Assembly: GCA_024409235.1 (NCBI GenBank)
Contig: JAKSUA010000013.1
Span: 808 to 64,807 of the forward strand
From: Bacteroidales bacterium
Lineage (GTDB): Bacteria; Bacteroidota; Bacteroidia; Bacteroidales; UBA1715
Direction: 5' to 3'
Length of the DNA stretch: 64,000 nucleotides
Below are positions 15,581-45,400 of the stretch, one piece after another. The notes under the pieces were generated by a model, which saw only the letters and a list, made by a program, of their open reading frames with translations, did no database searches and was not told the origin of the DNA. The translations under genes were made by a program, and so were the position numbers. Within the stretch, counting starts at the first letter, position 1; every line of letters begins with the position of its first letter.

Positions 15581-15594
15581 CGAAAACTAAAAAA

Positions 15595-17403: not shown

Positions 17404-17900
17404 TGGAAGTAAGCAAGAAATATTCTTTGCCGATGCAGGCTTTGGTGGGAGTGATTTTTGCTGCCGAGCTTTTTATAGTATTTATTTTGCTGTATCTGCA
17501 AAAGAGTTTTTCTTTTGATTTGTCTGCTGCAACAGGTCTGTTTGGCATTATAATGCTTGTATCTACGCTGATTCTCTCTGTTTGGAATATAGTGTTGCTT
17601 ATTGGTCGAAAAAGAAACCTAAGAAAAACCGCAGACGAAGATGCTCGTAAACAGATATTTCAGTCAACAACCTATGGACGCTATTTTACTTTGTTTGCAA
17701 TCGTCATTATAGGAGTTGCACTTACTTTTTTTACAGGAAATTTATATTATTTAATTTATGTTGTTTTTTCAATTGTTTGGCAGGTTGGAATTTTCCCGTC
17801 CTGGAATTCTATCTTTGCTGTACTGAATAACGAAAAGGCTGCAGAAATAAATAGTGAAGAAACATCAGAAATCACAACAGTTAATACGGAAAGTCTATGA
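17403..17900 (+). CDS. Small multi-pass membrane protein (hypothetical)
   Basis: Four hydrophobic segments. The ATG at 17403 overlaps the upstream TAA (TAATG). Its stop overlaps the next gene's start (ATGA at 17897-17900). Confidence 0.45.
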   Translation: MEVSKKYSLPMQALVGVIFAAELFIVFILLYLQKSFSFDLSAATGLFGIIMLVSTLILSVWNIVLLIGRKRNLRKTADEDARKQIFQSTTYGRYFTLFAIVIIGVALTFFTGNLYYLIYVVFSIVWQVGIFPSWNSIFAVLNNEKAAEINSEETSEITTVNTESL

Positions 17901-29678: not shown

Positions 29679-30290
29679 ATGAAAAAACTATTATTCATAT
29701 TAATATGTATGTTTGCTGTTGTGCAGGTGGAAGCACAATCTCGTCCAACTCCAAGTTCAAAATCTGCCGCTGCAAAAACAGCAAAAGAAGCTCAGGCTCC
29801 AAGAAAAACCTATGCAGAGCGTGTTGCAGATTCTATTGCCGGGAAATACGGACCAGATAACGTATTAATCACGAATGTGGTAACGGTTGAATCATCTGTT
29901 CAGAATGTAACTGCCACAGATATAACAATCGAGCAGACTGTTATTACTAATGTGTTGATAGAAAATGTAATTTGTCACTTTTTAACATTAACAAATGCGA
30001 CAATTTCTGATTTAACTATTCGAAATTGTAAAATAGAAGATTTTTTGATTGAAAATTCGTCTATCGGAAGTATGATTGTAGAAGATTCCCAGGTGGATGC
30101 GTTTGAATCGGACGAAAGTACAATTCGTCGCCAGACATTTATGTCTACGGAAAAAGACGAGGAAGTAAAGCCTGCGGCAAAATCCACAACAACAAAAACA
30201 ACAGCGAGCAAAACGCCGACTTCTACGCAAGCAAAACCTTCTTCAAGCAACAATAACAATAATAAGAAGAAAGGACAAATCCGTCGATAG
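29679..30290 (+). CDS. Secreted hypothetical protein with short beta-solenoid-like repeats and a low-complexity basic tail
   Basis: Signal peptide MKKLLFILICMFAVVQVEAQ. The central region has a repetitive (I/V)xN(V/A)x pattern (ITNVLIENVICHFLTLTNATISDLTIRNCKIEDFLIENSSIG). The tail is T/S/K-rich and ends NNNNNKKKGQIRR. Confidence 0.55.
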   Translation: MKKLLFILICMFAVVQVEAQSRPTPSSKSAAAKTAKEAQAPRKTYAERVADSIAGKYGPDNVLITNVVTVESSVQNVTATDITIEQTVITNVLIENVICHFLTLTNATISDLTIRNCKIEDFLIENSSIGSMIVEDSQVDAFESDESTIRRQTFMSTEKDEEVKPAAKSTTTKTTASKTPTSTQAKPSSSNNNNNKKKGQIRR

Positions 30291-30310: not shown

Positions 30311-30352
30311 AAAATGGCTCAGGGTGTTTCTTATACACATTGAGCCATTTTC
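30311..30352 (+). terminator. Stem-loop terminator after the 203-aa gene, upstream of the giant gene 2 promoter
   Basis: AAAATGGCTCA (30311-21) pairs with TGAGCCATTTT (30341-51), with an inner GTGT/ACAC pairing. Confidence 0.6.
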
Positions 30353-30387
30353 GTTGTGTTAATTTCTTGTTGAAAACAAAAATCGTT

Positions 30388-30395
30388 TATATTTG
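30388..30395 (+). promoter_or_regulatory. TAnnTTTG -7 promoter motif for giant gene 2
   Basis: TATATTTG(C), with TTG-containing sequence about 20 nt upstream. It lies inside the track ORF's N-terminal extension, supporting the ATG at 30484 (MYKFKRLSLVIAALAVSTFSYAQ signal peptide). Confidence 0.5.
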
Positions 30396-30483
30396 CAAAA
30401 TATACTGCAAAAAAGGGTTAGTGTGTAACCTTTTCTCAGTAGAAATAGTCTTGTTGAATAGTATTTTGCAAAATATATTGTTT

Positions 30484-33400
30484 ATGTATAAGTTTAAAAG
30501 ACTCTCATTAGTTATCGCTGCATTGGCAGTAAGTACATTCTCTTATGCTCAGAAGGATTTGTTGATTTCCGGAGGAAATGCGGTTTCGAGTTTGGTTTGT
30601 AGTAATAACTATGTGTATGTTACCGGTTTAAATAGCGTTCAGGAAGGAACAGGTGTTTTAGGTGCTGGTTCGAGTGCTAAAATGGAAACAAAATGGATTC
30701 GTGTCGAAGCTCCTAAAGATGCTTCGGGTGTGATTGTTAATATGTCCCAGGTAAACTCGGGATCAGGAGCTTCGTTTGTTGCGTTGGACTGTAAAGGACA
30801 AGTTTGGGGATGGGGAGGAAATGCTTATGGGCAAACGGGAGCGGGTGAAGGGTCTGCTTCTGTGATTGACAAACCTACGCAAGTAAAGCTTGGAAACTCT
30901 CCGTTAAAAAATACTGAGTACGATGACGGTTACGGACATTTAACAAATGTTGAGGTTGTGTATGCGGGAAATGCAAACTCGTTTGCTATTTTAGGAGAAG
31001 GTAGATACAAAGGACGTATAGTTGCATGGGGAGGAAATATTGCAAATGATAATTTCACGTCTTGTTTGGGTACAGGTTCGAATGCTCAGGCTTATTATCC
31101 AACATTCTGTAAAAAATTGGATGGTTCCTATGTGGAAGGGGCTATAAGAATCTTTTCAGGTGACCATATTACAATGACTCTTCTTGAAGATGGAACAGTT
31201 TGGACATGTGGTGACTCGGCTCATGGAGATTTTTTAGGCAGAAATGCAAGAGGAGGAAAATATACAGGTTCCGGCGGTGCCAGCAATGCATTTGGAATGG
31301 TGTATTTGGCTAACGGCGAACCGTTGTCAAACATTAAAGAGATTGCCTGCGGTGACGGTGCCTATTTAGCTCTTGACGGTGACGGATATATCTGGTCTTG
31401 GGGTAATGATGGGTGGAATAGTTGCGGTGGTACAGGTTCTAATGGACAAGGCGAAGGAGGTACTACTCCAGGACGTGTGTTGGCTGGAGATACGGATGAT
31501 GAGGATAATGACGGAACTTATTTGTTGGCAAAAGCTGTAGGTGCAGGTCAGTCATTTGGTATGGCAGTAACTGTTACCGGAAAACCGGTAGCATGGGGTG
31601 GCGGTGGCTGTAAGGGTGGTTATGTTGGTAACGGAACTGAAACTACTTCTCAATTGCCAGTTTACGTACAATATGCAAAGGGTGCTGTTCATAACGATGT
31701 GATTTTGATTAACCGTGGTGATTCATGGGGATTTTATGGCCGTTCGGACGGTTCCATGTATGCATGGGGCTGTGCTGAGAACGGACAGTTAGGAAACGGT
31801 TCAACCACAGCTCTTTTGTATGCGCAGAAGATAAATCCGCCTTCGGGTTGTGCTTTCCGTGATCCTTCGCCGGTAGCTACATTGTCGCCAAGAAGCATGT
31901 CAGTGTGTAAGTCTGCTTTTCAAAAAACTAAATTGACATGTGGTTTTACGGTAAGTTCCACAGATTTGTTGAGCGCATATAAAATTACATGGTATAAGGA
32001 TGGAAATGTTGTATTGACGGGTGATGGATCAAAAACCTCATATACAACAGAAGCAGGGGAAAAAGGTTTAGGTGAGTATAAAGTTGTTATTCAGTATGTT
32101 GGAAAGAATAGTGGTTGTGAAAGTTATAAGGATGGACGTGATTCTATTGTGATTTCCGCATACGAAAAGGAATTTGATGTTGTGGAAGAAATGGAGTTCT
32201 GTAATGACGAGGTTGTTGCAGGAGTAACAACAAAGAATACGAAGGCTGTTTATTCATGGTGGGGAGATAAAGATGGAACAGAACTTCTTGGGAAAACAAC
32301 AGGAAATGCAACAGGCACAATCGATGTGTCGGCAGTTCCTTATTCAGATACTAAGAAGACATATAAAACAATATATGTTCAGGAAACTGCTTTGGGAAGT
32401 GGTTCTTTAATTCCAGGAACACAAGCAAGCAGAACAGCAGCAAGTAATGCTGTTGGTCAGTCGTTCCCTTCTTTGGGTCTTGAAGCTTCAACGAAGACGA
32501 CATTTGTAAGTGCTTCGGTATATCTTCTACCAGCTATTACTAGAGGTAATGATCAGGGAAATTTTTATGATACCAACGAAGAAGCTGCTGCTCAGTATAA
32601 AACTTTGACTGGATCTGTTACGTTTACAATTACCGTTTATGGAACAAAGATGGTAAATGCTAAACTTGTAGCAAATTCGTCTGATATTAAGAAGAAGATA
32701 ACATATTCGGTTCCTTATACATATAAATATGAACCTGATAAAATTCAGTCTCAAGGTCAATGGGATAATAAAACCCAAACGAATGTTACGAGATATCAAC
32801 CAATTTGGAATGGCGGTGATGTAAACTTACCGATAGAGTTGATTGAGATTCCGTTGGATGTAACATTGGAAGTTGGGACATATTATTTTGCTATTTCTGG
32901 TTCTACAACAGGAAGTATGAACTCAAATAACACAAAACTATATGAATTAAATAGTAGTTTGGTTGGAGCGGTAGATGATTTGTCTGGAAAAGTATCTATA
33001 TATGGAGCCGACTCTTATGGTAATTATACTAATGAAAAATCTGGACCGCTGTTTAATTTCCAATTAAATTCGGAACAAGGTTACTGCGATTTGGTTCCTG
33101 TTAAATTAGTAGAAAGTTGTCCTTGTAACAAACCTGGAGAATTTAAGGTTGTTGCAGCAGATGATAAAACATACATTTGTCCAGATGAAACAGCAGTTTT
33201 GTCTTTCAAGGAAGTTTCTAAACCAGATAATGCAACTAAGGTTGTTTACGAATGGTATAAGGGAACTAAGAAATTAGATAATGATAACCAGAAATCGTTG
33301 GAGGTTGCCGAAAAAGGAACATATACATTATATGCATATGATAAGGATAATCCTAATACAGCTTCGTGCCAGTTTACTGCAGAAATAGAAATTACTGAAG

Positions 33401-36400
33401 CACCAAAACCAACAGTTGAAATCGGTGCTGGTGGAGACTATTGTGCTGGTGATGTTGTTAAAGACATTGCTCTAACATTTACGGGTTCCGCTCCGTTTAA
33501 TTTCACATATACGGAAAATGGTGGTACGGAACAAAAAGGTCTTGCTGCAACAGCGACAGGTAAAATAGAACCTGCATCTACTGTAGCTGCAGGAAAAGTT
33601 TCTTCAGAATACATATATAAAATAGCATCATTAACAGATAAATATTGTACTGCAGATGCGTATAATGGAAGTGCGATTGTAAACATTGCTGCAGTTCCTA
33701 CTGCAACAATAGAGGCATCGGATGAGGAAGTTTGTGCTCCTGAAACAATTACGCTTACAGGATCTTCAAACGTTACAGGTGCTGTTTTGGCATGGGGTGG
33801 TGATGGCAGTGGTGCTACTGCTACTCAAACTGTTGACGGTGCAGGTTCATATACATATACATTAGTAGCTACAAATACTGTCGGTAAAGCTGTTTGTAAG
33901 AGTGAAACTGCTACACAAACAGTGAAAATTGACGCAAAACCAGTTGTTACGATTTCATCTGACAAGACTGCTGTATGTAGTGATGGAACAATCAATGTTA
34001 CTGCTGTCGCTAAAATTGGTACGGATAAAGCTACAGATGGTAAATATACATGGACTGGTGCTACAGGAACAGGTGCTACTGCTACTGTAACAAAAACAGC
34101 AACTTGGCCTAATCCGGAAGAAGTGAAGGTAATGGTTGATTATGAGTCAAAAGCAGGTTGTAAGGCTGATCAGTCTGCACCTATAACGGTAACATTCAAC
34201 CCTGCTCCAACTGCTCCAACAGAAAGCAACAAGGCTTCATATTGTATGAACCCTTCTGGAGCTGATGTAACATTGGATGCAAATGCAGAAAAGAATTGTA
34301 CACTTCAATGGTACGATGGTACAACAAAATTGACAAAGGCACCAACAATTAGTATTAAGAGTGCAAAGACATATACATATAGTGTAACTCAGATTTATGA
34401 AGGTTGCGAAAGTGATCCTACTGATATTACAATAGTTGTAAATGACAAATTAAAACCAAAGATTTCGATAAACACTGATGAATTGTGTATCGGTGGTACA
34501 ACAGAAGTAACTGTGGAGGATGCAAACAAATATTCAGTAACATGGTCGGGAACAGCAGCTACTGCAGGATTTGGAAGTACTGCAACTGCAAAAGCTCCGA
34601 CATTTACAGCTCCGTCAGTTGCATCAAAGACTGAATACACTGTACATGTTTATGTTGAAAATGCAGAATGTGATGGTGAAAACGAAGCTACAATAACAGT
34701 ACATCCAACTCCAACTGTTACATTGGCGGTTGATGACAATGATATCTGTGACGGTGAAACTGCTACAATTACAGCTACAATAGCTGGAGATGATAATACT
34801 GGTAGTCAGACTGTATATACATGGAAAAATGCTGAAGAAGAAAGTAAAACAAGCGGAGCGTTGACAGGTGCAAATACAACAGCTACAGATAAGACAGAAA
34901 CTATTTCATATTCATATACAAGTAGTCATGGTTGTAAAGCTAAGGATGTAACAACAACGGTAACAGTTCGTGCTACACCACAGGCTCCGGTAACAGAACC
35001 ATATACAAAGTGTCTTGATGCATCGGAAGAATCATTGGATAACTATGTTACAAAGGCTGCGGGAGCAACTTTAAATTGGTATGGAAAGAATGAAACAGGA
35101 GGAACGGCAAGCAGTACAGCACCAATGGGTGCAACAAACAAAGTTGTGTCTCCTGCAGAAAACTATTATGTATCACAGACAATAAATGGTTGTGAAGGAG
35201 CAAGAGCTGCTCTTCCTGTTACTATCAATGCTAATCTTGAACCTGTAATCACAGCAACAGAGGCTAGTGGTTTGGAAGAAAATGACGGTATAGTTTGTGC
35301 TGGAACAGCAATTGTTCTTAAATCAAGTGGAAATTATACAGAAAAATGGTTTGCAGAGGGAAGTGGAAGCACATATCTGCAAGTAACATCGAATGCAAAA
35401 ACATTCTTGGGAACTGCACCTGCAGGAACATATAATGTGAAAGTGGAAGTTGAGGATGAAAATGGTTGTAAGGGTGAAGCAAGTAAAGCAATTACTGTAA
35501 ATGCAATACCTGTTGCTGAACTTTCTACTCCTGATAATGAACACTGTATAACAGAAACAACAGTTCAATTAATTACAGCAACAATTACTCCTTCAATGGA
35601 TGGAGTTGGAACTTGGACAAATGCAGATAAGAAAACAGATAAAACTGCAGAATTTACACCAAGTGCAAAAAGTTCTGGAACATATAAAGTTGCATACTCA
35701 TTTGTAAGTAATGATGGATGTTCGACAGCAAAAGATGCAGAACAGACAATGATTGTAAATGCTTTGCCAACACCAGAAATTACAGTTAGCAATGCTGTTG
35801 TTTGTAAAGATGGAACTACAAATAAAGATGTAGTAACAATAACAACAAAGAATACAATTCCTGCTGGAACATTCAGCTATGCTGTTAATAATGGTGGTAG
35901 TGTTGATGCTGCAAATGGAAGTTTTGATCCAACTGAAAATGAAGCAGGAACATATACAATAACATTAACATATACAGATGCAAATGGTTGTACAAATACG
36001 GCAACTGATGATGTAACTGTTTATGCTAAACCAACAGTGTCAATAACTGTTCCTTCTGAGGTATGCTATAATAATGAGACAAAATCAGAATTGGAACCTG
36101 TTGTTTCTCCAGCAAACGGAAAAGGAACATGGACAGGAACTGTTTCTGCAAATAGTAACCAATTTGATCCTAAATCGTATGCTGCTGGAAGTCAAAAAGT
36201 AACATATACATATACTGATCCAAATGGTTGTACAAACAGTGCAGAGGAAAATATAGATGTTGTAAAAGTTGATGCACCTACAGTAAGTGAAACTGCAACG
36301 GTAATGATAAATACAGAAAGCCATACCGTTGATGGAGAGGGAACTATGACCGCTACTGTCGCAGTAAGTTCAGATTCAGATGTTTTACAATGGTTTGAAG

Positions 36401-39400
36401 GAGATAAAGGTAGTGCAGGTTCACAGGTAGGTATAGACGGAGATGATACTTATACAAAAACAGTTGTAGAGACAACTCCGGAGGGATCTTATCCATATAC
36501 AGTACGTTCATATAGAGTGTTATCAACAGGTGCTAGTTGTTATAGTGATTCTGCTGTGACAAGAGTTGTAGTAACAAAATGTTCTGCAATTGCACCAAAG
36601 GCATCGGATAAATACATCTGTACTAATGACAATAATCCACAAACAGAATTAACTGCTACTAAAGTTTCCACGTTGGAAAGTTCTTATATAGCATGGATGA
36701 GTGAGGATCCTGTTGCAAAAACAAATGATGAAGTAAAAACATTGCTTGAAACAACAGAAGGTGTTGATACAAAAATTTATTCTCCATCTATTGAAAAGGA
36801 TGGAAGCTTAAATAAGATTAAGGACTATGTTTACTATGTTGCAGAATATGATAATGTAGGTAATTGTTGGTCTGCAGGAACAAAGGTAACAATACATGTT
36901 GTGGATACACCTTCTGTAAAAATTACTATGAATCCTGATTATTGTGCGTATGGAACAGATGTTATTTCTATTGATGTGGCGCCAAGAACAGGTACATTAG
37001 CATTCAAGGGTGGTTCTACATCAATGGGAAGTCTTAGTGGATTTGACTGGACTCCAGGAGACTATAGTGGTTCAGAGTTAGAGGGCGTATTTACATATAG
37101 TGTTGTAAGTTCTGCATATGCAGATGGAACACAATGTACATCTGTGCCAGAATTCAAGATTAATGCACATTATATGGATAAGCCAGAGGGAAGCACTACA
37201 AATTGGTTGATAAAACTTGCAGATCAAATTCCTGATCTTCCTGCTTATACTGAGAACAAGCCAGTTGAACCTGTAACTTGGTATTCAACATCTAGTATGT
37301 CCTCAAAAATTGGAGATGACAATTCTTCAAAAACATATTCACCTGGTGATTTGTCTTCAGTTGTGGCAGGTTTAACAGATTACAACGTAAGCTATTGGGT
37401 AACAAGAACAAAAGTAGTAAGTTCTGATTTGAGTTGTGAGAGTGAACCTGCTGAAGTAAAACTTATTCTTGCAGAATGTCCATGGGCAGCACCTCAGGTT
37501 GAGGATATTGTAATCTGTAGTGGTGATACCGATCCATTAACATTGATAGGAACACCAGGAGATTTAACTCAGGCAACAGGTGGAAAGGTAACGGGTTGGA
37601 AGTGGAATACAACAGAAACAGCTGGAGATAAGAATGAATATTCTACAGGACTTTCAAATGTAGCAACAGGAACTGCTTCTGTAACAGAATATATGGTAAG
37701 TTATAAGGCAGAGGAAAAAAATAGTAAGGCCGAATGTTGGAGTCCTGAAACAAAAGTAACGGTAACTGTAAATCCATTGCCAGTTATTGAAATTGATGAA
37801 ATAGGTACTTCATATGAAGCTGACAAACCAGGTGTATTATGTTACAATGGTGGTACATTTATGGCAACAGCAAAAGTAAATGGTGCTGCGGCTGCTGGTG
37901 GAACTTGGAGTTCCGAAACAGCTGGAATTATAGATGCATCGGGTATAATTGATCCTACAAATAGTAAAAATGCTGGAGAACCAGTTGATGGGAAATATAC
38001 TGTTAAGTATGAGTACACTGATGGTAATACCTGCTATAACTCAGAAGAAAAAGATTTCTGGGTAGAATATCCTGAAAATCCAGAAACTGCTAAATATACA
38101 GGCATTGCAGAACCAGATGCAGTTGAGGTTACTGTTGAAGCAAGAAATATTGATGAAACAGATATTCAGACTGCAACTGTAGTAACTTGGTACAGAAGTG
38201 CAAATGCTAAGAATAAGTTAAGTGATGAAAATCCATGGAAAATAGGAACTTCTGTTCTTGACCCTACATCTGTAACAGATGGAGAGGTAACATTCTATGT
38301 TTCACAAACGGTAAATGGATGTACAAGCGAAAGAGTTCCTTCAATAGTGGAGATCGTTGCATGTCCTTGGAAAATAGTTGATATTACTCCAGATGAAACT
38401 TGTGAAGGAACGGAATTCTCAGGAATGACAGCGACTGCAATGGAATCATATAATGGACAGACTGTTGCTCCGTTAAAATGGAGTTGGTCAACTGATGCTG
38501 ATGTAACATCTGCAACAGGCACATTGTCGGGTTCTCCTGTTACATATAAACAAACAGACAACAATACTGTTGGTCGAACTACATACTATGTACGTTATAG
38601 TGCAGAGTACGATGCGGCATCATATGAGTATGGAACTGTTGATAAAGAATGTTGGTCTGAAGTAGCTACAACAACATCTACAGTGTACAAAAATCCTACG
38701 GTTGAATTTGCTGAAAAATCTGGGGCTGTCTGCTTTACAGATGGAGCTGTAAAAGTTAATGTAAAGGTTAACTTAGGCGATGATGGAAGTGGAAATACAA
38801 ATAGTTTGGAAGAATGGACATGGAGTACTGATGGAAGTTCTGAATCGTTCACAACAAAAGAGTCAAGCTATGCATATTTCAACACACTTGCTCAGGATAA
38901 AGCAACAAAAACTTACGAGATTTCTCTTTATGTAAAAGATGACAAAGGTTGTGATAACACAACGACAATAGATGCTGAAAAACGTACTTTGGAGGTAATC
39001 TATTTGGATGCACCAGAAACTGAAGGATTCTACTCAATGACAAGTCAGGAACATGATGTTGAAGTAAAAGTGACTACTGCTGTTGCAGATGGAGCTGTTA
39101 TTCATTGGTTTGGTGATGCTACAACAATGTCTGATTCTGAGAAAAAGAATAAAAATGTTGCAGAGTCGTCAGATAAAGGAAAAACATGGGCTACTGGTGA
39201 TGCATATAATAGAACCGTTTTGAAATCATATTTCGCTCGTCAGTATGATGCTACGGCAAACTGTTATTCAGAGCCAACGGAAGCTATTGTGAAAATCGTT
39301 CCATGTCCTATACCAAATGTTATTGTAGATGCTCCACAAGCTTGTATCTATGATGTTGCCAGTGGTGCTGTTGCAATGACCGTTTCAACTGGAGTTGCTC

Positions 39401-42198
39401 CTGAAGGTAGTGAAGAATGGACAGAACGTGATCCAGCAAAATCTGAATTTAGATTCTATACAAGTACAGATAAAGATGTTGCATATAGTGCAACAGTTTC
39501 TGAAGGTGAAAAATATGATCCTAAGAATGAATTAACAGCTGCAGGCGTGTATTCTTATTATGTAACAGAATACAATTCTGAACCATTGGCAGGATTGACA
39601 TTCAATGAAGGATGTGAAAGCCAGAAGGTTAAAACAACTGTAACTGTGAAGGAGACTGAAGCTCCTAAGATTTCTCCAGAGAGTGATGCTGTATGTGAAG
39701 GACAGAATGATAAGCTTAAATTTAAATCAACTTTGAATTCTAATGTAACACCTTCATATTGGTATGAGGAAGATCCAGGTGCTTATGGTATTCCAACTGC
39801 AGAAGGAACTGTTGAGCAGCAAATGTATTACACTCCAAAACAGGAGGCTCCGGATACATATACAATATATGCAGTACGTTACGTAGATGATTGTTATAGT
39901 CAAAAAGTAACTGCTACATATACAATCAAACCAATTCCTGATGCACCTGAAGTTACAAACAATTCGGTTTGTGAGGAAAGTAATAATGTTGCTGTAACAG
40001 CAGAAGGTTCTACTGAAGATGCAGTAATCAACTGGTATGCTGATGAAAAAGCAACAAAATCATTGCTAAAGAATAGTGCAGAATATATTTCAAAAGAAAC
40101 AGAACCTGAAACATATTCTTACTATGCAACACAAACAATCGATGGTTGTGAAAGTAGTATGAAAACAACAGGTATAGCAAAAGCTCTTTATACTATCATT
40201 GCATTACCTTTACCTCCAAATGTTGATTACAAAACATCTCTTTGTGAATATGATGAAAATCAGGTAATGGTTGCTTCGGATCCAGCTTCTGGAAATCCAG
40301 TTGATAGCGTATTGTGGTATGCAACTGCAGATTTAGCAGAACCATTAGAAGATGGTGTATATACTAATTCATATACTGTAGAAGATGATGTAATGCTTGC
40401 AGGTATCAAGAGATTCTATGCAACACAAACCGTTAATGGTTGCGAAGGTCATTCAAAAATGATTACGTTTAATGTGTATGTGAAACCAGAATCTCCAAAA
40501 GTAGTTGGTGCAAGTATTTGTCAAGGAGAAACTGATATTCCAACATTATCTACAAACTTAAGTATAGATAAATGGTGGGCTGATGACATGATGACAACTA
40601 AGGTTACGGAAGGTTATACATATACACCAAAAGTTGAAGAAGTTGGTGCTACAGATTTAACATATTACATTACTCGTACACAAAATGGTTGTATTAGTGA
40701 TACCGTACCTGTTACATTGCATGTTATTCCAACACCTTCGTTGACAATAAGTGAGGATGTTTTAGCATGTATTTATGAAGACATACAAGAAATAAAAGCA
40801 GATGACTTTAAACCAGAAATGAACGAGGGTTCTTCTGTAAAATGGCAAGTTGTTAAAGATGGAGTTTCAAAGGCTGTTGCTGATGGAGAAAACCATTCTA
40901 TTACTCCTTCAGACTTGTTGACTGAAGCAACTGTATATACAATTAATGCTTCGTATAAGTATGTATATGATGGAATATTCTGTACAAGTGAACCTGTATC
41001 AATGACATATACATTGAAAGAACGTGCTCGTAAACCAATTGTGTTCACAAAAACAATTTGCCAGGGTGATCAGATTACAGATCTTCAGGCATTGGGTAGT
41101 CCAAATGTTGTATGGAAGAGTTTAAGTGGTACGCTTCCTGAGGATTATCATGGTGTTAAATATCATTTCCAACCAGGTCAAGTTTTGGATACAGGTACAT
41201 ATTACTACGAAATCTATGATTTGAATATGTATGATGAAGAAAACTTGTTGGGATGTGAAAGTATTCATGATACAGTACAAATGGTTGTTGCACCTGGTGC
41301 TCACACTAAATTGTATGGTAAAGATTCTATCTGTGTTGGTTCTGTTGGAGAAAGTTATTATACTCAATATGAAAGCACAAGTCAGTACTTCTGGACTGTA
41401 ACTGGTGATAACTTGAACTATTCTAAAGACGCAGCTTCAATGTCAGTTCGTTATATAGATTGGCTAACTCCTGGAGTTGATACTTTAATGGTGTACGAAC
41501 AAACTTGGGCTGGTTGTGAGGGCTTTGATACATTGATTGTAAAAGTTGCTCCTGTTCCTAAAGCTCATTTCTCATGGTCTATGCCTGGTGCCTCAAATAT
41601 TATAGAATTGGTTGACAGTACAATTCAGGATAGTTTGTGGACTACAGATGAAAAAGGTGAACCGCTTGCTTTGCCTGTAACATATACTATGGCATGGAAC
41701 TATGGACACCAAGGAACTCCAGATAGTCAGATAGATACATTGGTTCCATATAATCAAAGAAATTACCCTCTTCAGGAAGGTGGTTATTTGTATGGTTTCA
41801 ATTGCCCGATATTGACTGTAACTAACGACTTTGGATGTAAGAGTACATATACAGAATGTATTTTTGTAAATATTGCGTCATCAATATATGTACCAACGGC
41901 ATTCTCACCTACAAACCCTGCACATAGTGTAAGGATGTTCCAACCAAAAGGTTTCAATCTTGCAAGCTGCGAAGTATCAGTTTATGACAAATGGGGTAAC
42001 TTGTTGTGGTATTCTGATGAAGTAGAGGATGGTATGTTTGTAGGATCATGGGATGGACGTTACGATGGTAAGATGATGAAGTCTGACATTTATATCTGGA
42101 AGATGGAAGCAACCTTCCTTGATGGTCAAAAATGGCAAGGATTTGATAATGGTAATGGTAAAAAATCGAAATTCGGTAGTGTTACTTTGGTTCGATAA
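30484..42198 (+). CDS. Giant (3904 aa) SprB-like surface adhesin: signal peptide + RCC1 beta-propeller + many Cys-bracketed Ig-like modules + T9SS type B (gliding-motility CHU_C-type) CTD
   Basis: Uninterrupted ORF. The signal peptide starts at Met49 of the track ORF. Domain motifs are in the sub-features below. Confidence 0.9.
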   Translation: MYKFKRLSLVIAALAVSTFSYAQKDLLISGGNAVSSLVCSNNYVYVTGLNSVQEGTGVLGAGSSAKMETKWIRVEAPKDASGVIVNMSQVNSGSGASFVALDCKGQVWGWGGNAYGQTGAGEGSASVIDKPTQVKLGNSPLKNTEYDDGYGHLTNVEVVYAGNANSFAILGEGRYKGRIVAWGGNIANDNFTSCLGTGSNAQAYYPTFCKKLDGSYVEGAIRIFSGDHITMTLLEDGTVWTCGDSAHGDFLGRNARGGKYTGSGGASNAFGMVYLANGEPLSNIKEIACGDGAYLALDGDGYIWSWGNDGWNSCGGTGSNGQGEGGTTPGRVLAGDTDDEDNDGTYLLAKAVGAGQSFGMAVTVTGKPVAWGGGGCKGGYVGNGTETTSQLPVYVQYAKGAVHNDVILINRGDSWGFYGRSDGSMYAWGCAENGQLGNGSTTALLYAQKINPPSGCAFRDPSPVATLSPRSMSVCKSAFQKTKLTCGFTVSSTDLLSAYKITWYKDGNVVLTGDGSKTSYTTEAGEKGLGEYKVVIQYVGKNSGCESYKDGRDSIVISAYEKEFDVVEEMEFCNDEVVAGVTTKNTKAVYSWWGDKDGTELLGKTTGNATGTIDVSAVPYSDTKKTYKTIYVQETALGSGSLIPGTQASRTAASNAVGQSFPSLGLEASTKTTFVSASVYLLPAITRGNDQGNFYDTNEEAAAQYKTLTGSVTFTITVYGTKMVNAKLVANSSDIKKKITYSVPYTYKYEPDKIQSQGQWDNKTQTNVTRYQPIWNGGDVNLPIELIEIPLDVTLEVGTYYFAISGSTTGSMNSNNTKLYELNSSLVGAVDDLSGKVSIYGADSYGNYTNEKSGPLFNFQLNSEQGYCDLVPVKLVESCPCNKPGEFKVVAADDKTYICPDETAVLSFKEVSKPDNATKVVYEWYKGTKKLDNDNQKSLEVAEKGTYTLYAYDKDNPNTASCQFTAEIEITEAPKPTVEIGAGGDYCAGDVVKDIALTFTGSAPFNFTYTENGGTEQKGLAATATGKIEPASTVAAGKVSSEYIYKIASLTDKYCTADAYNGSAIVNIAAVPTATIEASDEEVCAPETITLTGSSNVTGAVLAWGGDGSGATATQTVDGAGSYTYTLVATNTVGKAVCKSETATQTVKIDAKPVVTISSDKTAVCSDGTINVTAVAKIGTDKATDGKYTWTGATGTGATATVTKTATWPNPEEVKVMVDYESKAGCKADQSAPITVTFNPAPTAPTESNKASYCMNPSGADVTLDANAEKNCTLQWYDGTTKLTKAPTISIKSAKTYTYSVTQIYEGCESDPTDITIVVNDKLKPKISINTDELCIGGTTEVTVEDANKYSVTWSGTAATAGFGSTATAKAPTFTAPSVASKTEYTVHVYVENAECDGENEATITVHPTPTVTLAVDDNDICDGETATITATIAGDDNTGSQTVYTWKNAEEESKTSGALTGANTTATDKTETISYSYTSSHGCKAKDVTTTVTVRATPQAPVTEPYTKCLDASEESLDNYVTKAAGATLNWYGKNETGGTASSTAPMGATNKVVSPAENYYVSQTINGCEGARAALPVTINANLEPVITATEASGLEENDGIVCAGTAIVLKSSGNYTEKWFAEGSGSTYLQVTSNAKTFLGTAPAGTYNVKVEVEDENGCKGEASKAITVNAIPVAELSTPDNEHCITETTVQLITATITPSMDGVGTWTNADKKTDKTAEFTPSAKSSGTYKVAYSFVSNDGCSTAKDAEQTMIVNALPTPEITVSNAVVCKDGTTNKDVVTITTKNTIPAGTFSYAVNNGGSVDAANGSFDPTENEAGTYTITLTYTDANGCTNTATDDVTVYAKPTVSITVPSEVCYNNETKSELEPVVSPANGKGTWTGTVSANSNQFDPKSYAAGSQKVTYTYTDPNGCTNSAEENIDVVKVDAPTVSETATVMINTESHTVDGEGTMTATVAVSSDSDVLQWFEGDKGSAGSQVGIDGDDTYTKTVVETTPEGSYPYTVRSYRVLSTGASCYSDSAVTRVVVTKCSAIAPKASDKYICTNDNNPQTELTATKVSTLESSYIAWMSEDPVAKTNDEVKTLLETTEGVDTKIYSPSIEKDGSLNKIKDYVYYVAEYDNVGNCWSAGTKVTIHVVDTPSVKITMNPDYCAYGTDVISIDVAPRTGTLAFKGGSTSMGSLSGFDWTPGDYSGSELEGVFTYSVVSSAYADGTQCTSVPEFKINAHYMDKPEGSTTNWLIKLADQIPDLPAYTENKPVEPVTWYSTSSMSSKIGDDNSSKTYSPGDLSSVVAGLTDYNVSYWVTRTKVVSSDLSCESEPAEVKLILAECPWAAPQVEDIVICSGDTDPLTLIGTPGDLTQATGGKVTGWKWNTTETAGDKNEYSTGLSNVATGTASVTEYMVSYKAEEKNSKAECWSPETKVTVTVNPLPVIEIDEIGTSYEADKPGVLCYNGGTFMATAKVNGAAAAGGTWSSETAGIIDASGIIDPTNSKNAGEPVDGKYTVKYEYTDGNTCYNSEEKDFWVEYPENPETAKYTGIAEPDAVEVTVEARNIDETDIQTATVVTWYRSANAKNKLSDENPWKIGTSVLDPTSVTDGEVTFYVSQTVNGCTSERVPSIVEIVACPWKIVDITPDETCEGTEFSGMTATAMESYNGQTVAPLKWSWSTDADVTSATGTLSGSPVTYKQTDNNTVGRTTYYVRYSAEYDAASYEYGTVDKECWSEVATTTSTVYKNPTVEFAEKSGAVCFTDGAVKVNVKVNLGDDGSGNTNSLEEWTWSTDGSSESFTTKESSYAYFNTLAQDKATKTYEISLYVKDDKGCDNTTTIDAEKRTLEVIYLDAPETEGFYSMTSQEHDVEVKVTTAVADGAVIHWFGDATTMSDSEKKNKNVAESSDKGKTWATGDAYNRTVLKSYFARQYDATANCYSEPTEAIVKIVPCPIPNVIVDAPQACIYDVASGAVAMTVSTGVAPEGSEEWTERDPAKSEFRFYTSTDKDVAYSATVSEGEKYDPKNELTAAGVYSYYVTEYNSEPLAGLTFNEGCESQKVKTTVTVKETEAPKISPESDAVCEGQNDKLKFKSTLNSNVTPSYWYEEDPGAYGIPTAEGTVEQQMYYTPKQEAPDTYTIYAVRYVDDCYSQKVTATYTIKPIPDAPEVTNNSVCEESNNVAVTAEGSTEDAVINWYADEKATKSLLKNSAEYISKETEPETYSYYATQTIDGCESSMKTTGIAKALYTIIALPLPPNVDYKTSLCEYDENQVMVASDPASGNPVDSVLWYATADLAEPLEDGVYTNSYTVEDDVMLAGIKRFYATQTVNGCEGHSKMITFNVYVKPESPKVVGASICQGETDIPTLSTNLSIDKWWADDMMTTKVTEGYTYTPKVEEVGATDLTYYITRTQNGCISDTVPVTLHVIPTPSLTISEDVLACIYEDIQEIKADDFKPEMNEGSSVKWQVVKDGVSKAVADGENHSITPSDLLTEATVYTINASYKYVYDGIFCTSEPVSMTYTLKERARKPIVFTKTICQGDQITDLQALGSPNVVWKSLSGTLPEDYHGVKYHFQPGQVLDTGTYYYEIYDLNMYDEENLLGCESIHDTVQMVVAPGAHTKLYGKDSICVGSVGESYYTQYESTSQYFWTVTGDNLNYSKDAASMSVRYIDWLTPGVDTLMVYEQTWAGCEGFDTLIVKVAPVPKAHFSWSMPGASNIIELVDSTIQDSLWTTDEKGEPLALPVTYTMAWNYGHQGTPDSQIDTLVPYNQRNYPLQEGGYLYGFNCPILTVTNDFGCKSTYTECIFVNIASSIYVPTAFSPTNPAHSVRMFQPKGFNLASCEVSVYDKWGNLLWYSDEVEDGMFVGSWDGRYDGKMMKSDIYIWKMEATFLDGQKWQGFDNGNGKKSKFGSVTLVR
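30568..31830 (+). other. RCC1-repeat beta-propeller region of giant gene 2
   Basis: Recurrent RCC1 blade signatures: GQVWGWGGNAYGQTGAG, RIVAWGGNIAND, GTVWTCGDSAHGDFLG, GYIWSWGNDGWNSCGGTG, KPVAWGGGGCKGGYVGNG, SMYAWGCAENGQLGNGS. Confidence 0.75.
36382..40020 (+). repeat. Four divergent ~900-bp (~300 aa) super-repeats inside giant gene 2
   Basis: Units start at V(L/T/V/I)xW(F/Y) motifs near 36382, 37273, 38179 and 39097 (spacing 891, 906, 918 nt). Each ends a module with ...C(Y/E/T)S(D/E)...V(V/K/E)(V/L/I)(V/I)...C(S/P)... and continues with ...CWS...VT(I/V)xV. Conservation is at the protein-pattern level, not near-identical DNA. Confidence 0.55.
41884..42195 (+). other. T9SS type B C-terminal domain (gliding motility-associated, CHU_C-like)
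   Basis: IYVPTAFSPTNPAHSVRMFQPKG...CEVSVYDKWGNLLWYSDE...GSWDGRYDGKMMKSDIYIWKMEA...GSVTLVR matches the pattern vPNaFtPn.d..N..f ... v.iynRWG.lv ... WdG...G..l..g.Y.y ... G.vtLiR. Confidence 0.8.
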
Positions 42199-42220: not shown

Positions 42221-42256
42221 AAAGAGGAATTTCAGTTGCGAAGTTCCTCTTTTTGT
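42221..42256 (+). terminator. Intrinsic terminator between giant genes 2 and 3
   Basis: AAAGAGGAA (42221-29) / 14-nt loop / TTCCTCTTT (42244-52), then TTGTTTT. Confidence 0.65.
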
Positions 42257-42358
42257 TTTAAATGGTTGTGTTTGTTTTCAATAGAAGACTGATTCCAAAG
42301 TGTAATATAAACACGTACAAATCAGTGAATTATATTTTGTTTTTATTTATTTTTAATC

Positions 42359-42401: not shown

Positions 42402-45400
42402 ATGAAAAGATTTTCGTTCTTATTTGTTTTGTTAGTTGTTGTATATCAGGCATTTTCGCAGTCAATTGCGACGGGTTATACGGTAGGAACTTGGTCGGGT
42501 TTCCGTTCTGCGGCAGCGTCTTTCACATTTGATGATGATGCTCCGAGTCATGTGTCGGTGGTTGCACCGGAATTTGATAAGCGTGGTTTCAATGCAACAT
42601 TCAATGTCGTTGTAAATTGGATGAATCAGTCTAGTCAATGGTCTGATTTTCAAAAAATGGCAGCGAAAGGTCACGAAATTGCGAGCCATACGGTTACTCA
42701 CTCGGAAAACACACCATCGTCGGAGTTAAGTAGTTCAAAAACAACTATCAATCAAAAAATCACAGGACAAGATTGTAATACCATTGCGTACCCATATTGC
42801 AATGTTCCGTCAGATGCAAGTGCGTTGGCTGCAAACTATATTGGTGGCCGTATTTGCGATGGTCAAATAATGGGAAAAACTCCAAGTGACTATTTCAGAA
42901 TATCTGCTATCACAACAGGTAGTGAAACAGGTTTCACAAAAGCTGATGACTTCACGTCATCAATGCAATCTGCTGCAAGTAAAGGTGGTTGGGTTGTGTT
43001 TCTAACACACGGAATTACTGGCGAAACCAATGGTAATGCTACATATTCCCCTACTCCTATTAATGCCATTACTGGTGCACTTGATTGGGCGAAGGAAAAC
43101 GATTCTAAAATATGGGTTGCTACTTTCCGCGATGCAATTTTGTATGCAAAAGAACGCGATGCGCTATCGTTGTCAGAGAAAAAAGTAAGTTCTACAAACT
43201 ACCAACTTACTGCAAGTGTAGGCATTACAAGTTCAGTTGTTACATACGATTATCCAATAACTGTTCGTCGTGAAATGCCAAGTGGTTGGAAAAATTTTGC
43301 GGCTTCAACTGGTGGAAAGGACATTTCGGTAAAAACAGTGACTGTGGGTTCAACAAAATATGCTCAGTTTGATGTTGTTCCTGGAAAAACATATTCTTTG
43401 GAAGATCGCGAAAGTGAATATACAGAAGAAGGTGAAACTGTTGAAGTTCCAAAAATGAAAAATCTCATTGAAAATGGTGAGTTTGATGAAGGAACAAGTT
43501 CATGGCAAACACAAACAGGTGATGATGCAAAATGTACTTTGACAGCGACTACAACGGCAGGTTTATCTGGTGCAAATGCAGTCCAATTATGCCCAGATGG
43601 CAATTATGGAACAGAAAACTGGCATATACAAGTATATCAAAACGTAGAATTAGAGGGTGATGTGGAATATACGCTATCATTTAGCGCCAAAGCTTCTACT
43701 GCAAGGAAATTGTATGTGATGGTGCAAAAAATTGCTGCAGATTATGATACATACTTGTATCAGGAATGTGATTTGACGACAACTGCCAAAGATTTTGAAT
43801 TTACTATGGTAGCTCCATCTGATGTTGCTATGGATTCAAAGGTTACATTCTGTATTGGTGGTTCTGATGGTTGTGTTATGCTTGACAAGGTGTTCTTTGG
43901 TTATGAAAATCAGTCAAGTTCAGAAGGTGGAGGCGACAGACCATCATACGATGTAGAGGTTTCTGGCGGAATTGAAAAATATTTTGTTGACAAGGCGTAC
44001 ATCGGACCAAGTTGCGATGCTCTTCCTGGTGAGGAAGTAACTAATGGTGCATATTATACTGGTGAATACACTAACTTGTTTGTTAAATATCTTGGTAAAA
44101 CAGAAGCGCAGGTTCAAGCAAAAATGAAAAGCGTTTGGGATCATTTCTATACACCAAATGGTCAAAACACGGTGTATTATGAGGCTGGAAGTGACATGGC
44201 GTATATCTATGATACTGGTAACCAAGATGTTCGTACCGAAGGTCAGTCATATGGTTTGATGATCTGCGTTCAAATGGGGGACCAAGAAAAATTTGACAAA
44301 TTATGGCGTTGGGCAAAGAAATATATGCAATATAAATCTGGTGATGCCCGCGAAGGTTTGTTTGCTTGGCAATGCGAAACTAATGGTACTATCAAAGGTG
44401 CTTCTTCTGCTCCTGATGGTGAAATGTATTTCTTGACAGCATTGTTCTTCGCTTCTCACCGTTGGGGTAACGATGGTGCTATCAATTATGAAGAAGAAGC
44501 ACAATATCTTGCAAAATGTCTTTTGAATAAGAGTGGTAGAGGTAATGGTCAAGTTAGTCCATTGTTCAACAAGAGTAACTATCTTGTAACATTCGGTGAA
44601 ACTTCGTATGATTTTTCTGACCCTTCATATAACTTACCAGGTTTCTTGGAATTGTGGGCTCGTTGGATAAATACAAATACTGATTTCTGGGTAAAAACTC
44701 CACAGGCAGCTCGTGATTTGTTGTACAACTCAGCTCATAAAACGACAGGTTTGTATCCTGATTATTGTAACTTTGATGGATCGGGTTATTATCCTAATTG
44801 GGCTGGATACAATACAAGTATTTACAAATATGACGCTATCCGTTGTCCTATGAATGTTGGTATGGATTATCATTGGTTTGCTGCTGATTCTCGTCAGGAA
44901 ACAATGATGTACAACATTTTGAATTTCTTTAAGAAAGATGGTTATTCACACGCGTACTTTAATGTTGACGGAACGGGTGCTGATGGCTATTATTCAGAAG
45001 GTCAAAAAGGAGCAAATGGTGTGGGCGTATTTGGTTTGACTGCGGGAAATGAAGCATTGGCAAAAGAAAATCTTCAAAAACTTTGGGATGTAACGCCTCC
45101 AACAGGACAATGGCGTTATTACAATGGTATGGTGTATATGCTTTCTATGCTTCACGCAACAGGAAACTTCCGTATTTTCAAACCAACACCTGAGGTTGTT
45201 GTTGAAACTCTTTCTGGACCTGCTCCTGTAATTTTTAATGAAGAAGAATTTACGAAAGATACTACTTTCAAAACATTGATAGACTGTAAGATTTACGATG
45301 TAACTATCACTATTGAGGAATCTGCTGCAACATATACAGTAACATTTGAAGATTATGACGGCACAGAATTGAAGTCGGAAGAAGTTGCTGCTGGCGATGC

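What the first reader, a model, noticed from the sequence alone, without database searches (positions are those of the whole stretch)
30484..42198. 3904-aa RCC1-propeller / Ig-array adhesin with a T9SS type B CTD but no adjacent PorP/SprF-like partner
The N-terminus has six or more RCC1 blade signatures (for example GQVWGWGGNAYGQTGAG and MYAWGCAENGQLGNGS). About 3300 aa of Cys-bracketed Ig-like modules follow. The last ~100 aa match the gliding-motility CHU_C / type B CTD (…YDKWGNLLWY…WDGRYDGK…GSVTLVR). In Flavobacterium johnsoniae, type B CTD cargo such as SprB depend on a cognate PorP/SprF-like outer-membrane protein that is usually encoded next to the cargo gene. Here the gene is followed by a terminator (42221-42256) and then another cargo gene. 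It is preceded by a 203-aa secreted repeat protein that does not look like a beta-barrel PorP. An RCC1 propeller as the distal head of a SprB-like filament is an unusual combination.
Basis: partly seen in the sequence, partly recalled or inferred. Interest (0 to 1): 0.65.

Follow-up and report, generated by a model that had tools for sequence, protein, structure and literature searches.

The report
Giant RCC1-headed T9SS surface adhesin
This is a real 3904-residue cell-surface fibre protein of an uncultured gut Bacteroidales bacterium, one of a multi-copy family that shares a divergent type B secretion tail; having no carrier gene next door is normal for this family and has published precedents, so the finding is solid but fairly ordinary.

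Summary
Window 30484-42198 encodes an intact 3904-aa protein. It has a Sec signal peptide, a confidently modelled 7-bladed RCC1-like propeller, 31 Cys-bracketed Ig-like modules interrupted by a 230-aa orphan domain, two PKD-like domains and a C-terminal domain homologous to the T9SS type B CTD.

The CTD is divergent. It scores below both curated cutoffs, but profile-profile comparison with canonical CHU_C domains gives 98.7% probability.

No PorP/SprF gene lies next to the gene or anywhere in the window, and the 203-aa upstream gene is not one.

- RCC1 heads on T9SS cargo are common, including RCC1 + CHU_C + adjacent PorP/SprF cassettes.
- "Orphan" type B cargo is documented in F. johnsoniae (3 of 12, sharing one unlinked shuttle) and in P. 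gingivalis (PG1035 on the core PorP).
- This gene belongs to a paralogous family of giants in rumen, hindgut and termite Bacteroidales MAGs, with 2-7+ copies seen per MAG.
- The family has variable heads, a collinear stalk and a highly conserved C-terminal module, and essentially never a linked shuttle.
- MAGs of this clade do encode PorP/SprF elsewhere, including a core porP-porK locus.

Best reading: a T9SS-exported adhesin anchored by a shared, unlinked PorP-family carrier.

The parts
30388..30395 (+). TATATTTG, a match to the Bacteroidota -7 promoter consensus TAnnTTTG, ~90 nt upstream of the ATG. It is part of a 13-nt direct repeat TTTGCAAAATATA (30392-30404 and 30465-30477).
   Evidence: Read directly from the sequence. 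The consensus is from established knowledge of Bacteroides promoters. Promoter function is inferred, not shown.
30484..30549 (+). Sec signal peptide (aa 1-22, MYKFKRLSLVIAALAVSTFSYA|QK).
   Evidence: The N-terminus is conserved in relatives (consensus M...K......AQK.L.ISGG). In the AF2 model it is a helix of low confidence.
30556..31848 (+). RCC1-like 7-bladed beta-propeller head (aa ~25-455).
   Evidence: PF00415, PF13540 and PF25390. AF2 pLDDT 87.4. Foldseek matches to UVR8, RCC1 and HERC2 RLD with E down to 7e-26 and target TM-scores of 0.82-0.87.
31861..32409 (+). Ig-like modules 1-2 (aa 460-642).
   Evidence: Self-derived HMM, E 8e-14 and 4e-11.
32410..33099 (+). Cys-free insert domain of unknown fold (aa 643-872). 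It is shared only with RCC1-headed relatives.
   Evidence: 295-aa gap in the Cys pattern. No significant Pfam hit, no PDB sequence hit and no database homologue. It is 24-29% identical to the same region of L020, L010 and L067.
33100..41268 (+). Stalk of 29 Cys-bracketed Ig-like modules (aa 873-3595). It includes four ancient ~300-aa three-module super-repeats (aa ~1921-3136, window 36244-39891).
   Evidence: Self-HMM hits. Pfam Ig_7 'CHU_C associated' 79.6 bits and Pom152-like Ig. Cys periodicity. Super-repeats are 23-28% identical to each other. The stalk is collinear with paralogues at 38-49% identity.
41269..41865 (+). Two PKD-like beta-sandwich domains (aa 3596-3794) that form the conserved C-terminal module together with the CTD.
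   Evidence: Weak PKD_6 hit here; 10 of 22 relatives hit PKD_6. AF2 model of aa 3575-3904 has pLDDT 83.3 and is all-beta. The module is 62-79% identical among paralogues.
41866..42195 (+). Divergent T9SS type B (CHU_C-like) C-terminal sorting domain (aa 3795-3904). TNPAHSVR replaces the canonical NGDGxND, there are two insertions, and the terminal motif is GSVTLVR.
   Evidence: TIGR04131 21 bits (below 35) and PF13585 22.8 bits (below 27). 21 of 22 family members hit PF13585, best E 6.7e-14. Aligns with the canonical CTD of P0142. hhalign against canonical CTDs gives 98.7% probability, E 3.5e-16.
42221..42262 (+). Intrinsic-terminator-like hairpin (13-bp stem at 42221-42252) plus T-run.
   Evidence: 1 site found against 0.2 expected in shuffles.
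29679..30290 (+). Upstream 203-aa secreted protein with a beta-helix-like repeat core and low-complexity tails. It is context only: not a PorP/SprF and not conserved with the family. It is followed by a hairpin at 30311-30351.
   Evidence: No Pfam or NCBIfam hit. No tblastn hit in 84 related loci. Not hit by PorP jackhmmer. Sequence.
42402..50552 (+). Downstream neighbour (context): a 2716-aa multi-domain protein with CE4, GH8, CBM35, GH26, Listeria-Bacteroides repeats and a type A CTD. It shows that the organism has a T9SS.
   Evidence: TIGR04183 24.6 bits against a cutoff of 23.

Best explanation
The gene encodes a giant cell-surface adhesin or fibril of an uncultured herbivore-gut Bacteroidales bacterium.

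Proposed mechanism, with steps marked S (shown by sequence or structure analysis) or I (inferred).
1. Sec export via the N-terminal signal peptide (S: the peptide is present).
2. Recognition by the T9SS through a conserved C-terminal module of about 330 aa, made of two PKD-like domains plus a divergent type B CTD (S: homology; I: function).
3. Extraction from the SprA/Sov translocon and permanent anchoring on the outer membrane by a PorP/SprF-family beta-barrel carrier that is encoded elsewhere in the genome and shared by all paralogues carrying this module. This would be either the core PorP of the porP-porK operon, as for P. gingivalis PG1035, or a dedicated orphan shuttle like F. johnsoniae Fjoh_1677 (I).
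4. A stalk of about 31 disulfide-braced Ig-like modules, on the order of 100 nm long, holds the RCC1-like propeller and an orphan 230-aa domain away from the cell as the ligand-binding head (I).

Paralogues keep the stalk and the anchor module but swap heads, which gives the cell a repertoire of binding specificities.
For: The ORF is intact, and its orthologue L020 is 61.6% identical over 3687 aa.

The propeller is confirmed.

The CTD is homologous to canonical type B CTDs: only type B models hit it, 21 of 22 relatives hit CHU_C, and hhalign gives 98.7%. NCBI names relatives 'gliding motility-associated C-terminal domain-containing protein'.

A T9SS is implied by the type A cargo next door.

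The family has 113 genomic relatives, and the 80 loci kept come from ~21 MAGs with 2-7+ copies each. Conservation rises along the protein: head ~30%, stalk 38-49%, C-terminal module 62-79%, CTD 72-85%. That gradient is expected if all paralogues dock on one partner.

Type B signals are known to extend beyond the ~100-aa CTD, up to 235 aa (PMC12618676).

No recurrent PorP_SprF was found among 132 downstream ORFs. Only 3 PorP homologues occur in ~1.1 Mb of family loci, and none is paired with a family gene.

Clade MAGs do encode PorP/SprF. L031 carries porP followed by an FGE-sulfatase protein (PorK/GldK-like) in UBA3754, a MAG that has at least 6 family copies. L017 carries a canonical CHU_C giant plus PorP cassette.

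Precedents for unlinked carriers are in PMC12618676 and PMC9143113. GhpA shows that a giant Ig-stalk T9SS substrate can be anchored by PorP/PorE homologues.
Against: The CTD fails both curated thresholds and lacks the canonical NGDGxND stretch, so recognition by a PorP-family carrier is not guaranteed.

The window's own genome could not be searched, so a PorP/SprF gene in that genome is inferred from related MAGs only.

No experiment or complex prediction links this CTD to any carrier.

The ligand of the RCC1 head is unknown.

The upstream sides of most paralogues were not covered, because the genes are longer than the 10-kb flank.

The Pfam batch output lists only the 25 commonest families, so a rare PorP neighbour cannot be excluded from that test alone. 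The jackhmmer scan covers that gap.
Confidence: 0.68

Rival explanations
1. The divergent C-terminal module defines a distinct T9SS sorting class. It would be handled by a carrier or anchor that is not a PorP/SprF protein, or the protein would be released or self-assembled without a carrier. On this view the absence of linked shuttles is mechanistically meaningful.
For: Scores are below threshold on both curated type B models. NGDGxND is replaced by TNPAHSVR and there are two insertions. An extended module of 330-450 positions is conserved as a unit in 466 50%-identity clusters at E<=1e-30. No linked PorP was seen in 80 loci, whereas canonical CHU_C cargo in the same clade does keep its linked PorP (L017).
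Against: Homology to the type B CTD over its full length is clear. Unlinked PorP-family shuttles that serve several cargos are already demonstrated (PMC12618676). A core PorP is present in a MAG rich in these genes. No alternative conserved neighbour gene was found.
Confidence: 0.17
2. The protein is a mobile gliding adhesin, a functional analogue of SprB, propelled along the cell surface by the gliding machinery.
For: It has a type B CTD, giant repetitive architecture, and the family name 'gliding motility-associated'. Orphan type B cargos in F. johnsoniae are directed to the gliding machinery (PMC12618676).
Against: No SprB repeat (PF13573) was detected. No gld or spr gene is in the window. 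The two PorP homologues recovered from clade MAGs lack the C-terminal Cys-X-Cys tail that SprF needs to attach to GldK tracks (PMC12635249). The hosts are anaerobic gut Bacteroidales, for which gliding is not established (own knowledge).
Confidence: 0.1
3. The upstream 203-aa secreted repeat protein is the dedicated partner (anchor or chaperone) of the giant protein.
For: It is on the same strand, 193 nt upstream, has a signal peptide, and belongs to no known family.
Against: It has no PorP/SprF or beta-barrel signature. No homologue occurs in any of 84 related loci, including upstream of the RCC1-headed relatives L010 and L054. It is separated from the giant gene by a hairpin and a promoter-like element.
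Confidence: 0.04

Closest known systems
Orphan type B CTD substrates of Flavobacterium johnsoniae (Fjoh_1123, Fjoh_1720, Fjoh_4934) served by the unlinked SprF-like shuttle Fjoh_1677 (PMC12618676)
   Same: They have a type B-family CTD and no porP/sprF-like gene next to the cargo gene. Several cargos with similar CTDs share one carrier.
   Different: Here the CTD is a divergent subfamily that scores below curated cutoffs. The cargos are 3000-3900-aa giants with a collinear stalk, and 2-7+ paralogues were seen per MAG. The carrier is unidentified.
Porphyromonas gingivalis PG1035 bound to the core PorP-PorE complex (PMC9143113)
   Same: It comes from a Bacteroidales organism. The type B cargo is not linked to its carrier gene, and the carrier is the core PorP of the T9SS. 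A porP-porK-like locus exists in a clade MAG (L031).
   Different: PG1035 is a ~50-kDa single protein and the only type B cargo in its genome. Here there is a large paralogous family of giant adhesins.
Aureispira GhpA grappling hook (PDB 9flw/9flx/9g8b etc.; bioRxiv 10.1101/2024.01.29.577165)
   Same: [quoted passage not shown] It is the top structural match for the C-terminal module.
   Different: GhpA is 5898 aa with 52 Ig repeats, forms heptamers, and has PorP (ghpB) and PorE (ghpC) homologues directly downstream. The resemblance here is only a generic tandem-Ig one (TM-scores <0.4). Oligomerisation is unknown and no linked anchor genes are present.
Canonical RCC1 + CHU_C + PorP/SprF cassettes (e.g. 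P0119 with PF11751 4 nt downstream) and RCC1 + type A CTD proteins (e.g. F. psychrophilum THC0290_2385, PMC5682007)
   Same: An RCC1-like propeller is displayed as T9SS cargo.
   Different: Those proteins are 500-950 aa with no long stalk, and they have a canonical CTD, with a linked shuttle for the type B examples.
SprB of F. johnsoniae
   Same: [quoted passage not shown]
   Different: No SprB repeats were detected here, no adjacent sprF, and no evidence of gliding. The clade's PorP homologues lack the SprF Cys-X-Cys tail.

Membership tests
T9SS type B CTD (TIGR04131 / Pfam PF13585 CHU_C) | Scores at or above the curated cutoff of the family HMM | tested here: not met
   TIGR04131 21 bits against 35. 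PF13585 22.8 bits against 27 on the isolated C-terminus.
T9SS type B CTD (TIGR04131 / Pfam PF13585 CHU_C) | Homology to canonical type B CTDs over the whole ~90-100-aa domain, located at the extreme C-terminus of a Sec-signal protein | tested here: met
   hhalign of the family CTD against canonical CTDs gives 98.7% probability, E 3.5e-16, 92 columns. 21 of 22 relatives hit PF13585, best E 6.7e-14. The domain ends at the stop codon, and a signal peptide is present.
T9SS type B CTD (TIGR04131 / Pfam PF13585 CHU_C) | Conserved sequence motifs (five motifs A-E required for SprB secretion, PMC12618676) | tested here: inconclusive
   These motifs are conserved: VPTAFSP, F.P, VYDKWGNLLW (compare VYNRWG..VY), WDG.Y.G, Y.WK and GSVTLVR. 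The canonical NGDGxND stretch is replaced by TNPAHSVR. The paper defines motifs A-E only in a figure, which I could not read.
T9SS type B CTD (TIGR04131 / Pfam PF13585 CHU_C) | Secretion depends on, and the protein is anchored by, a PorP/SprF-like carrier, independently of PorV | not testable with these tools
   This needs genetics or biochemistry. Only precedents are available (PMC9143113, PMC12618676).
T9SS type B CTD (TIGR04131 / Pfam PF13585 CHU_C) | porP/sprF-like gene directly downstream (typical of the family, but not universal) | tested here: not met
   No PF11751 hit and no jackhmmer hit in the window. The same holds for the family loci.
T9SS type A CTD (TIGR04183 / PF18962) | HMM match at the C-terminus | tested here: not met
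   No hit at E<=0.01 on the full protein or at E<=10 on the C-terminal 132 and 232 aa.
RCC1-like beta-propeller (PF00415 / PF13540 / PF25390) | RCC1 repeat HMM matches and a 7-bladed propeller fold | tested here: met
   PF00415 41 bits and PF13540 36 bits, both above cutoff; PF25390 144 bits against 150. AF2 pLDDT 87.4. UVR8, RCC1 and HERC2 matches at target TM-scores of 0.82-0.87.
SprB gliding adhesin family | SprB repeats (PF13573), a cognate sprF downstream, and movement on the gliding track | tested here: not met
   No PF13573 hit and no sprF. Movement is not testable here.
PorP/SprF (PF11751 / TIGR03519), applied to the 203-aa upstream gene | HMM match to a ~300-aa 14-strand barrel | tested here: not met
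   No hit even at E<=10. Not found by PorP jackhmmer. At 203 aa with low-complexity tails it is also too short.

The most novel reading that the evidence does not exclude
The conserved C-terminal module of about 330-450 aa (two PKD-like domains plus a TNPAHSVR-type CTD) marks a previously unrecognised T9SS sorting and anchoring subclass in gut and termite Bacteroidales. A whole repertoire of head-swapped giant fibrils would dock onto one common carrier, possibly the core PorP itself or a non-PorP anchor. That would be a one-anchor-many-adhesins system, distinct from the cognate-pair logic of Flavobacterium type B cargo.
Probability: 0.2. Interest if true: 0.55.

Novelty: new member of a known kind. 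Interest (0 to 1): 0.3.

Why it matters
The result documents that fibre-degrading gut Bacteroidales carry multi-copy families of ~3000-3900-aa T9SS adhesins with interchangeable heads and a shared, unusually conserved anchor module.

That module slips under the curated type B HMM cutoffs, so such cargo is under-annotated in rumen and hindgut MAGs.

It offers a natural test case for how one PorP-family carrier can serve many cargos.

It does not overturn current T9SS models, because orphan type B cargo and RCC1-headed cargo are both already known.

Tried and rejected
- The whole-protein homology search timed out.
- Exact look-up of the protein found no record, so the source genome could not be retrieved. 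The best genomic relative is 81% identical in the C-terminal module.
- The 309-aa ORF after the second cargo gene was considered as a hidden PorP. It is a ketopantoate reductase.
- ~281-aa ORFs recurring downstream of several paralogues were considered as carriers. They are ABC-2 permeases.
- A regex for the PorP N-terminal motif, recalled from memory, found nothing useful. It was replaced by jackhmmer seeded with a Pfam-verified PorP from L017.
- The AFDB50 fold library was unavailable.
- The PDB fold search of the C-terminal module returned only generic tandem-Ig matches. [quoted passage not shown]
- The type A CTD reading was rejected.
- The reading of the 203-aa gene as a partner was rejected as unlikely.
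Full report
**1. Observation**

The window has one uninterrupted reading frame, 30340-42198 (+). The first ATG, at 30484, starts MYKFKRLSLVIAALAVSTFSYA|QK. This is a typical Sec signal peptide, and it is conserved in relatives. The protein is 3904 aa, as reported.

A terminator-like hairpin (13-bp stem, 42221-42252, then a T-run) follows the stop codon; 1 site was found against 0.2 expected by chance.

Upstream, the 203-aa gene ends at 30290 and is followed by an 11-bp-stem hairpin (30311-30351). A TATATTTG element at 30388-30395 matches the Bacteroidota -7 consensus TAnnTTTG (the consensus is from established knowledge). The giant gene therefore probably has its own promoter. This is an inference.

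**2. Anatomy**

*Head.* Pfam finds RCC1 repeats: PF00415 at 41 bits, PF13540 at 36 bits, and PF25390 at 144 bits against a cutoff of 150. An AlphaFold2 model of aa 1-500, built with 36 homologues, is confident (pLDDT 87.4, pTM 0.86). It superposes on the complete 7-bladed propellers of UVR8, RCC1 and HERC2-RLD, with E down to 7e-26 and target TM-scores of 0.82-0.87.

*Stalk.* The 82 cysteines show a regular spacing of about 60 aa, then about 26 aa. An HMM grown from one module finds 31 modules:
- two at aa 460-642;
- 29 at aa 873-3595.

Pfam labels them Ig_7 ("CHU_C associated", 79.6 bits) and Pom152-like Ig. Between aa ~1921 and 3136 the modules form four three-module super-repeats. These are only 23-28% identical to each other, so they are ancient rather than recent duplications or assembly artefacts.

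*Insert.* A Cys-free stretch at aa 643-872 interrupts the array. It has no Pfam, PDB or database homologue. It is shared, at 24-29% identity, only with RCC1-headed relatives.

*C-terminus.* The last 330 aa model confidently (pLDDT 83.3) as all-beta domains: two PKD-like domains followed by the CTD.

**3. The C-terminal domain**

Only type B models hit it, and both fall below their curated cutoffs:
- TIGR04131: 21 bits against 35;
- PF13585 CHU_C: 22.8 bits against 27.

No type A model hits it.

The 22 closest relatives of the last 330 aa all come from Bacteroidales MAGs, and NCBI names several of them [quoted passage not shown]. Of these 22, 21 hit CHU_C, with a best E of 6.7e-14.

The family aligns motif for motif with canonical CTDs: VPTAFSP, VY[ND][KR]WG, WDG.Y.G, Y.WK and G.V.L.R. 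It differs in two ways. NGDGxND is replaced by TNPAHSVR, and there are two insertions.

A profile-profile comparison with four canonical CTDs gives 98.7% probability and E 3.5e-16 over 92 columns.

Conclusion: this is a divergent subfamily of the type B CTD. It is homologous to the family but does not pass the curated membership thresholds.

**4. Neighbourhood**

No ORF in the window matches PorP_SprF. A jackhmmer search seeded with a Pfam-verified PorP from a related MAG finds nothing among all window ORFs of 60 aa or more.

- The 203-aa upstream protein has a signal peptide, a short beta-helix-like repeat core and low-complexity tails. It matches no family, even at E<=10.
- The downstream gene (42402-50552) encodes a 2716-aa protein with CE4, GH8, CBM35, GH26, Listeria-Bacteroides repeats and a type A CTD. 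The organism therefore has a T9SS. This is an inference.
- The 309-aa ORF after that gene is a ketopantoate reductase.

**5. Relatives**

A scan of one genome per species found 113 relatives of the C-terminal module. The 80 loci kept come from about 21 uncultured Bacteroidales or Bacteroidota MAGs with 2-7+ copies each. Sources include buffalo, yak and sheep digestive tracts, horse faeces, termite gut and digesters. The window's own genome is not among them; the best match is 81% identical.

Nearly all of these genes are giants of about 3100-3660+ aa.

L020 is the orthologue, at 61.6% identity over 3687 aa. The other paralogues are collinear with the window protein from about aa 860-880 to the end. 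RCC1 heads occur only on some copies (the window gene, L010, L020, L054, L067 and weakly L056); the other complete copies have different heads.

Identity to the window protein rises along its length:

| Region | Identity among paralogues |
|---|---|
| Head | ~30% |
| Stalk | 38-49% |
| C-terminal module | 62-79% |
| CTD proper | 72-85% |

A search of 1.84 billion representative proteins finds 466 clusters at E<=1e-30. Most of the top ~100 carry the full module at the extreme C-terminus, and many of those proteins are 3000-5400 aa long.

**6. Is the missing partner unusual?**

In this family it is the rule. Among 132 ORFs lying just downstream of family genes, the recurrent Pfam families are housekeeping ones. 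The ~281-aa recurrent ORF is an ABC-2 permease.

Only three PorP homologues exist in about 1.1 Mb of family loci, and none is paired with a family gene:
- **L017:** the PorP (PF11751, 201.7 bits) sits directly after a canonical CHU_C giant (85.7 bits) on the opposite strand. This is a classic cognate cassette in the same clade.
- **L031:** from UBA3754, which has at least 6 family copies. The PorP (138 bits) is followed by an FGE-sulfatase-domain protein, the PorK/GldK signature. This is the core porP-porK arrangement.
- **L052:** a partial PorP at a contig end.

As a positive control, the canonical RCC1 + CHU_C protein P0119 has PF11751 starting 4 nt after its stop.

The literature supports the same conclusion:
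- In F. johnsoniae only 9 of 12 type B genes have an adjacent sprF-like gene. The three orphans share the unlinked shuttle Fjoh_1677. Type B signals can extend to 235 aa (PMC12618676).
- In P. gingivalis, the only type B protein, PG1035, binds the single core PorP and PorE and stays on the surface with its CTD uncleaved (PMC9143113).

An orphan type B cargo is therefore an established situation.

**7. Is an RCC1 head unusual?**

No. The closest relatives of the head include many RCC1 + type A CTD proteins, two RCC1 + CHU_C proteins, and an RCC1 protein of Cytophaga hutchinsonii. An RCC1-repeat protein with a T9SS CTD was detected on the F. psychrophilum surface, in a gld-dependent manner (PMC5682007).

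What is specific to this protein is the combination of that head with a stalk of about 2700 aa.

**8. Mechanism proposed**

1. The protein is exported by Sec.
2. The T9SS translocates it, guided by the C-terminal module.
3. An unlinked PorP-family carrier, shared by all paralogues, captures it and anchors it permanently.
4. The Ig stalk projects the RCC1 + insert head away from the cell as the binding end.

What is shown: the domains, the homology of the CTD, the family structure, the conservation gradient, and the presence of PorP genes in clade MAGs. What is inferred: secretion, the identity of the carrier, and the adhesive function.

The closest solved analogue is Aureispira GhpA. It is a 5898-aa T9SS substrate with 52 disulfide-braced Ig repeats and a distal hook, and PorP and PorE homologues are encoded downstream of it. 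The structural match is only generic, with TM-scores below 0.4.

A gliding role like that of SprB is less likely, for three reasons:
- no SprB repeats are present;
- no gld genes are in the window;
- the two clade PorPs lack the C-terminal Cys-X-Cys tail that SprF needs to link to GldK (PMC12635249).

**9. Verdict**

The protein is a new member of a known kind: a giant T9SS type B-family adhesin.

The modestly new points are:
- the divergent anchor module, which escapes the curated HMM cutoffs;
- its multi-copy, head-swapping, shuttle-unlinked family in herbivore-gut and termite Bacteroidales.

The main uncertainty is the identity of the carrier, or whether one exists at all. That needs a complete genome and either complex prediction or genetics.

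Noticed in passing
window 66-10214 (+): A second giant ORF of at least 3382 aa, which may begin before the window. It has Pom152-like Ig, PKD and Ig_7 modules and a C-terminus that weakly matches DUF6383 (20.5 bits) and the type A CTD (19.5 bits), both below cutoff. It is probably another T9SS surface giant with a different tail.
   Followed up: partly
window 42402-50552 (+): A 2716-aa multi-catalytic protein with CE4 deacetylase, GH8, CBM35, GH26, ~10 Listeria-Bacteroides repeats, FIVAR and a type A CTD (TIGR04183 24.6 bits against a cutoff of 23). This is an unusually large multi-enzyme T9SS cargo, apparently for hemicellulose or mannan.
   Followed up: partly
window 32410-33099 (aa 643-872 of the giant protein): A Cys-free 230-aa domain inserted in the Ig array. 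It has no Pfam, PDB or database homologue and is shared only with RCC1-headed relatives (L020, L010, L067; 24-29% identity). It may form part of the ligand-binding head.
   Followed up: partly
window 10602-13742 (-), 14093-14827 (-), 60511-61392 (+): ORFs of 1046, 244 and 293 aa with no significant Pfam hit (E<=0.001); the first two also have no NCBIfam hit.
   Followed up: no
L017 4699-11847 (-): A canonical type B cassette in a MAG of the same clade: a 2080-aa giant with CHU_C (85.7 bits) directly followed by PorP_SprF (201.7 bits). It lies 2.6 kb from a divergent-CTD giant and converges on it, with a phosphoglucose isomerase gene between them.
   Followed up: yes
L031 16227-18445 (+): A core T9SS locus in MAG UBA3754: PorP_SprF (138 bits) followed by an FGE-sulfatase-domain protein (PorK/GldK-like) that runs off the contig end. 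Neither this PorP nor the L017 PorP has a C-terminal Cys-X-Cys motif.
   Followed up: partly
L067 780-2381 and 2366-10852; L002 3-7139 and 7159-8700: Family genes are split into two ORFs (RCC1 head and stalk in L067; 2378 + 513 aa in L002). These could be frameshifts from assembly error, or pseudogenisation of some paralogues.
   Followed up: no
L008 5874-15857, L070 399-10337, L073 from 514: Another ORF of more than 3000 aa starts right after the end of a family gene. The giants are sometimes arranged in tandem.
   Followed up: no
window 30392-30404 and 30465-30477: A 13-nt direct repeat TTTGCAAAATATA occurs twice in the 193-nt leader of the giant gene. The first copy overlaps the TAnnTTTG-like -7 box. 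This could be a duplicated promoter or an operator element.
   Followed up: no
window 15502-20994 compared with L002 11311-14787: The AMP-binding, SufD and SufC genes that lie ~10-15 kb upstream of the giant gene in the window sit immediately downstream of a family gene in L002. Synteny is partial and has been rearranged around the adhesin loci.
   Followed up: no
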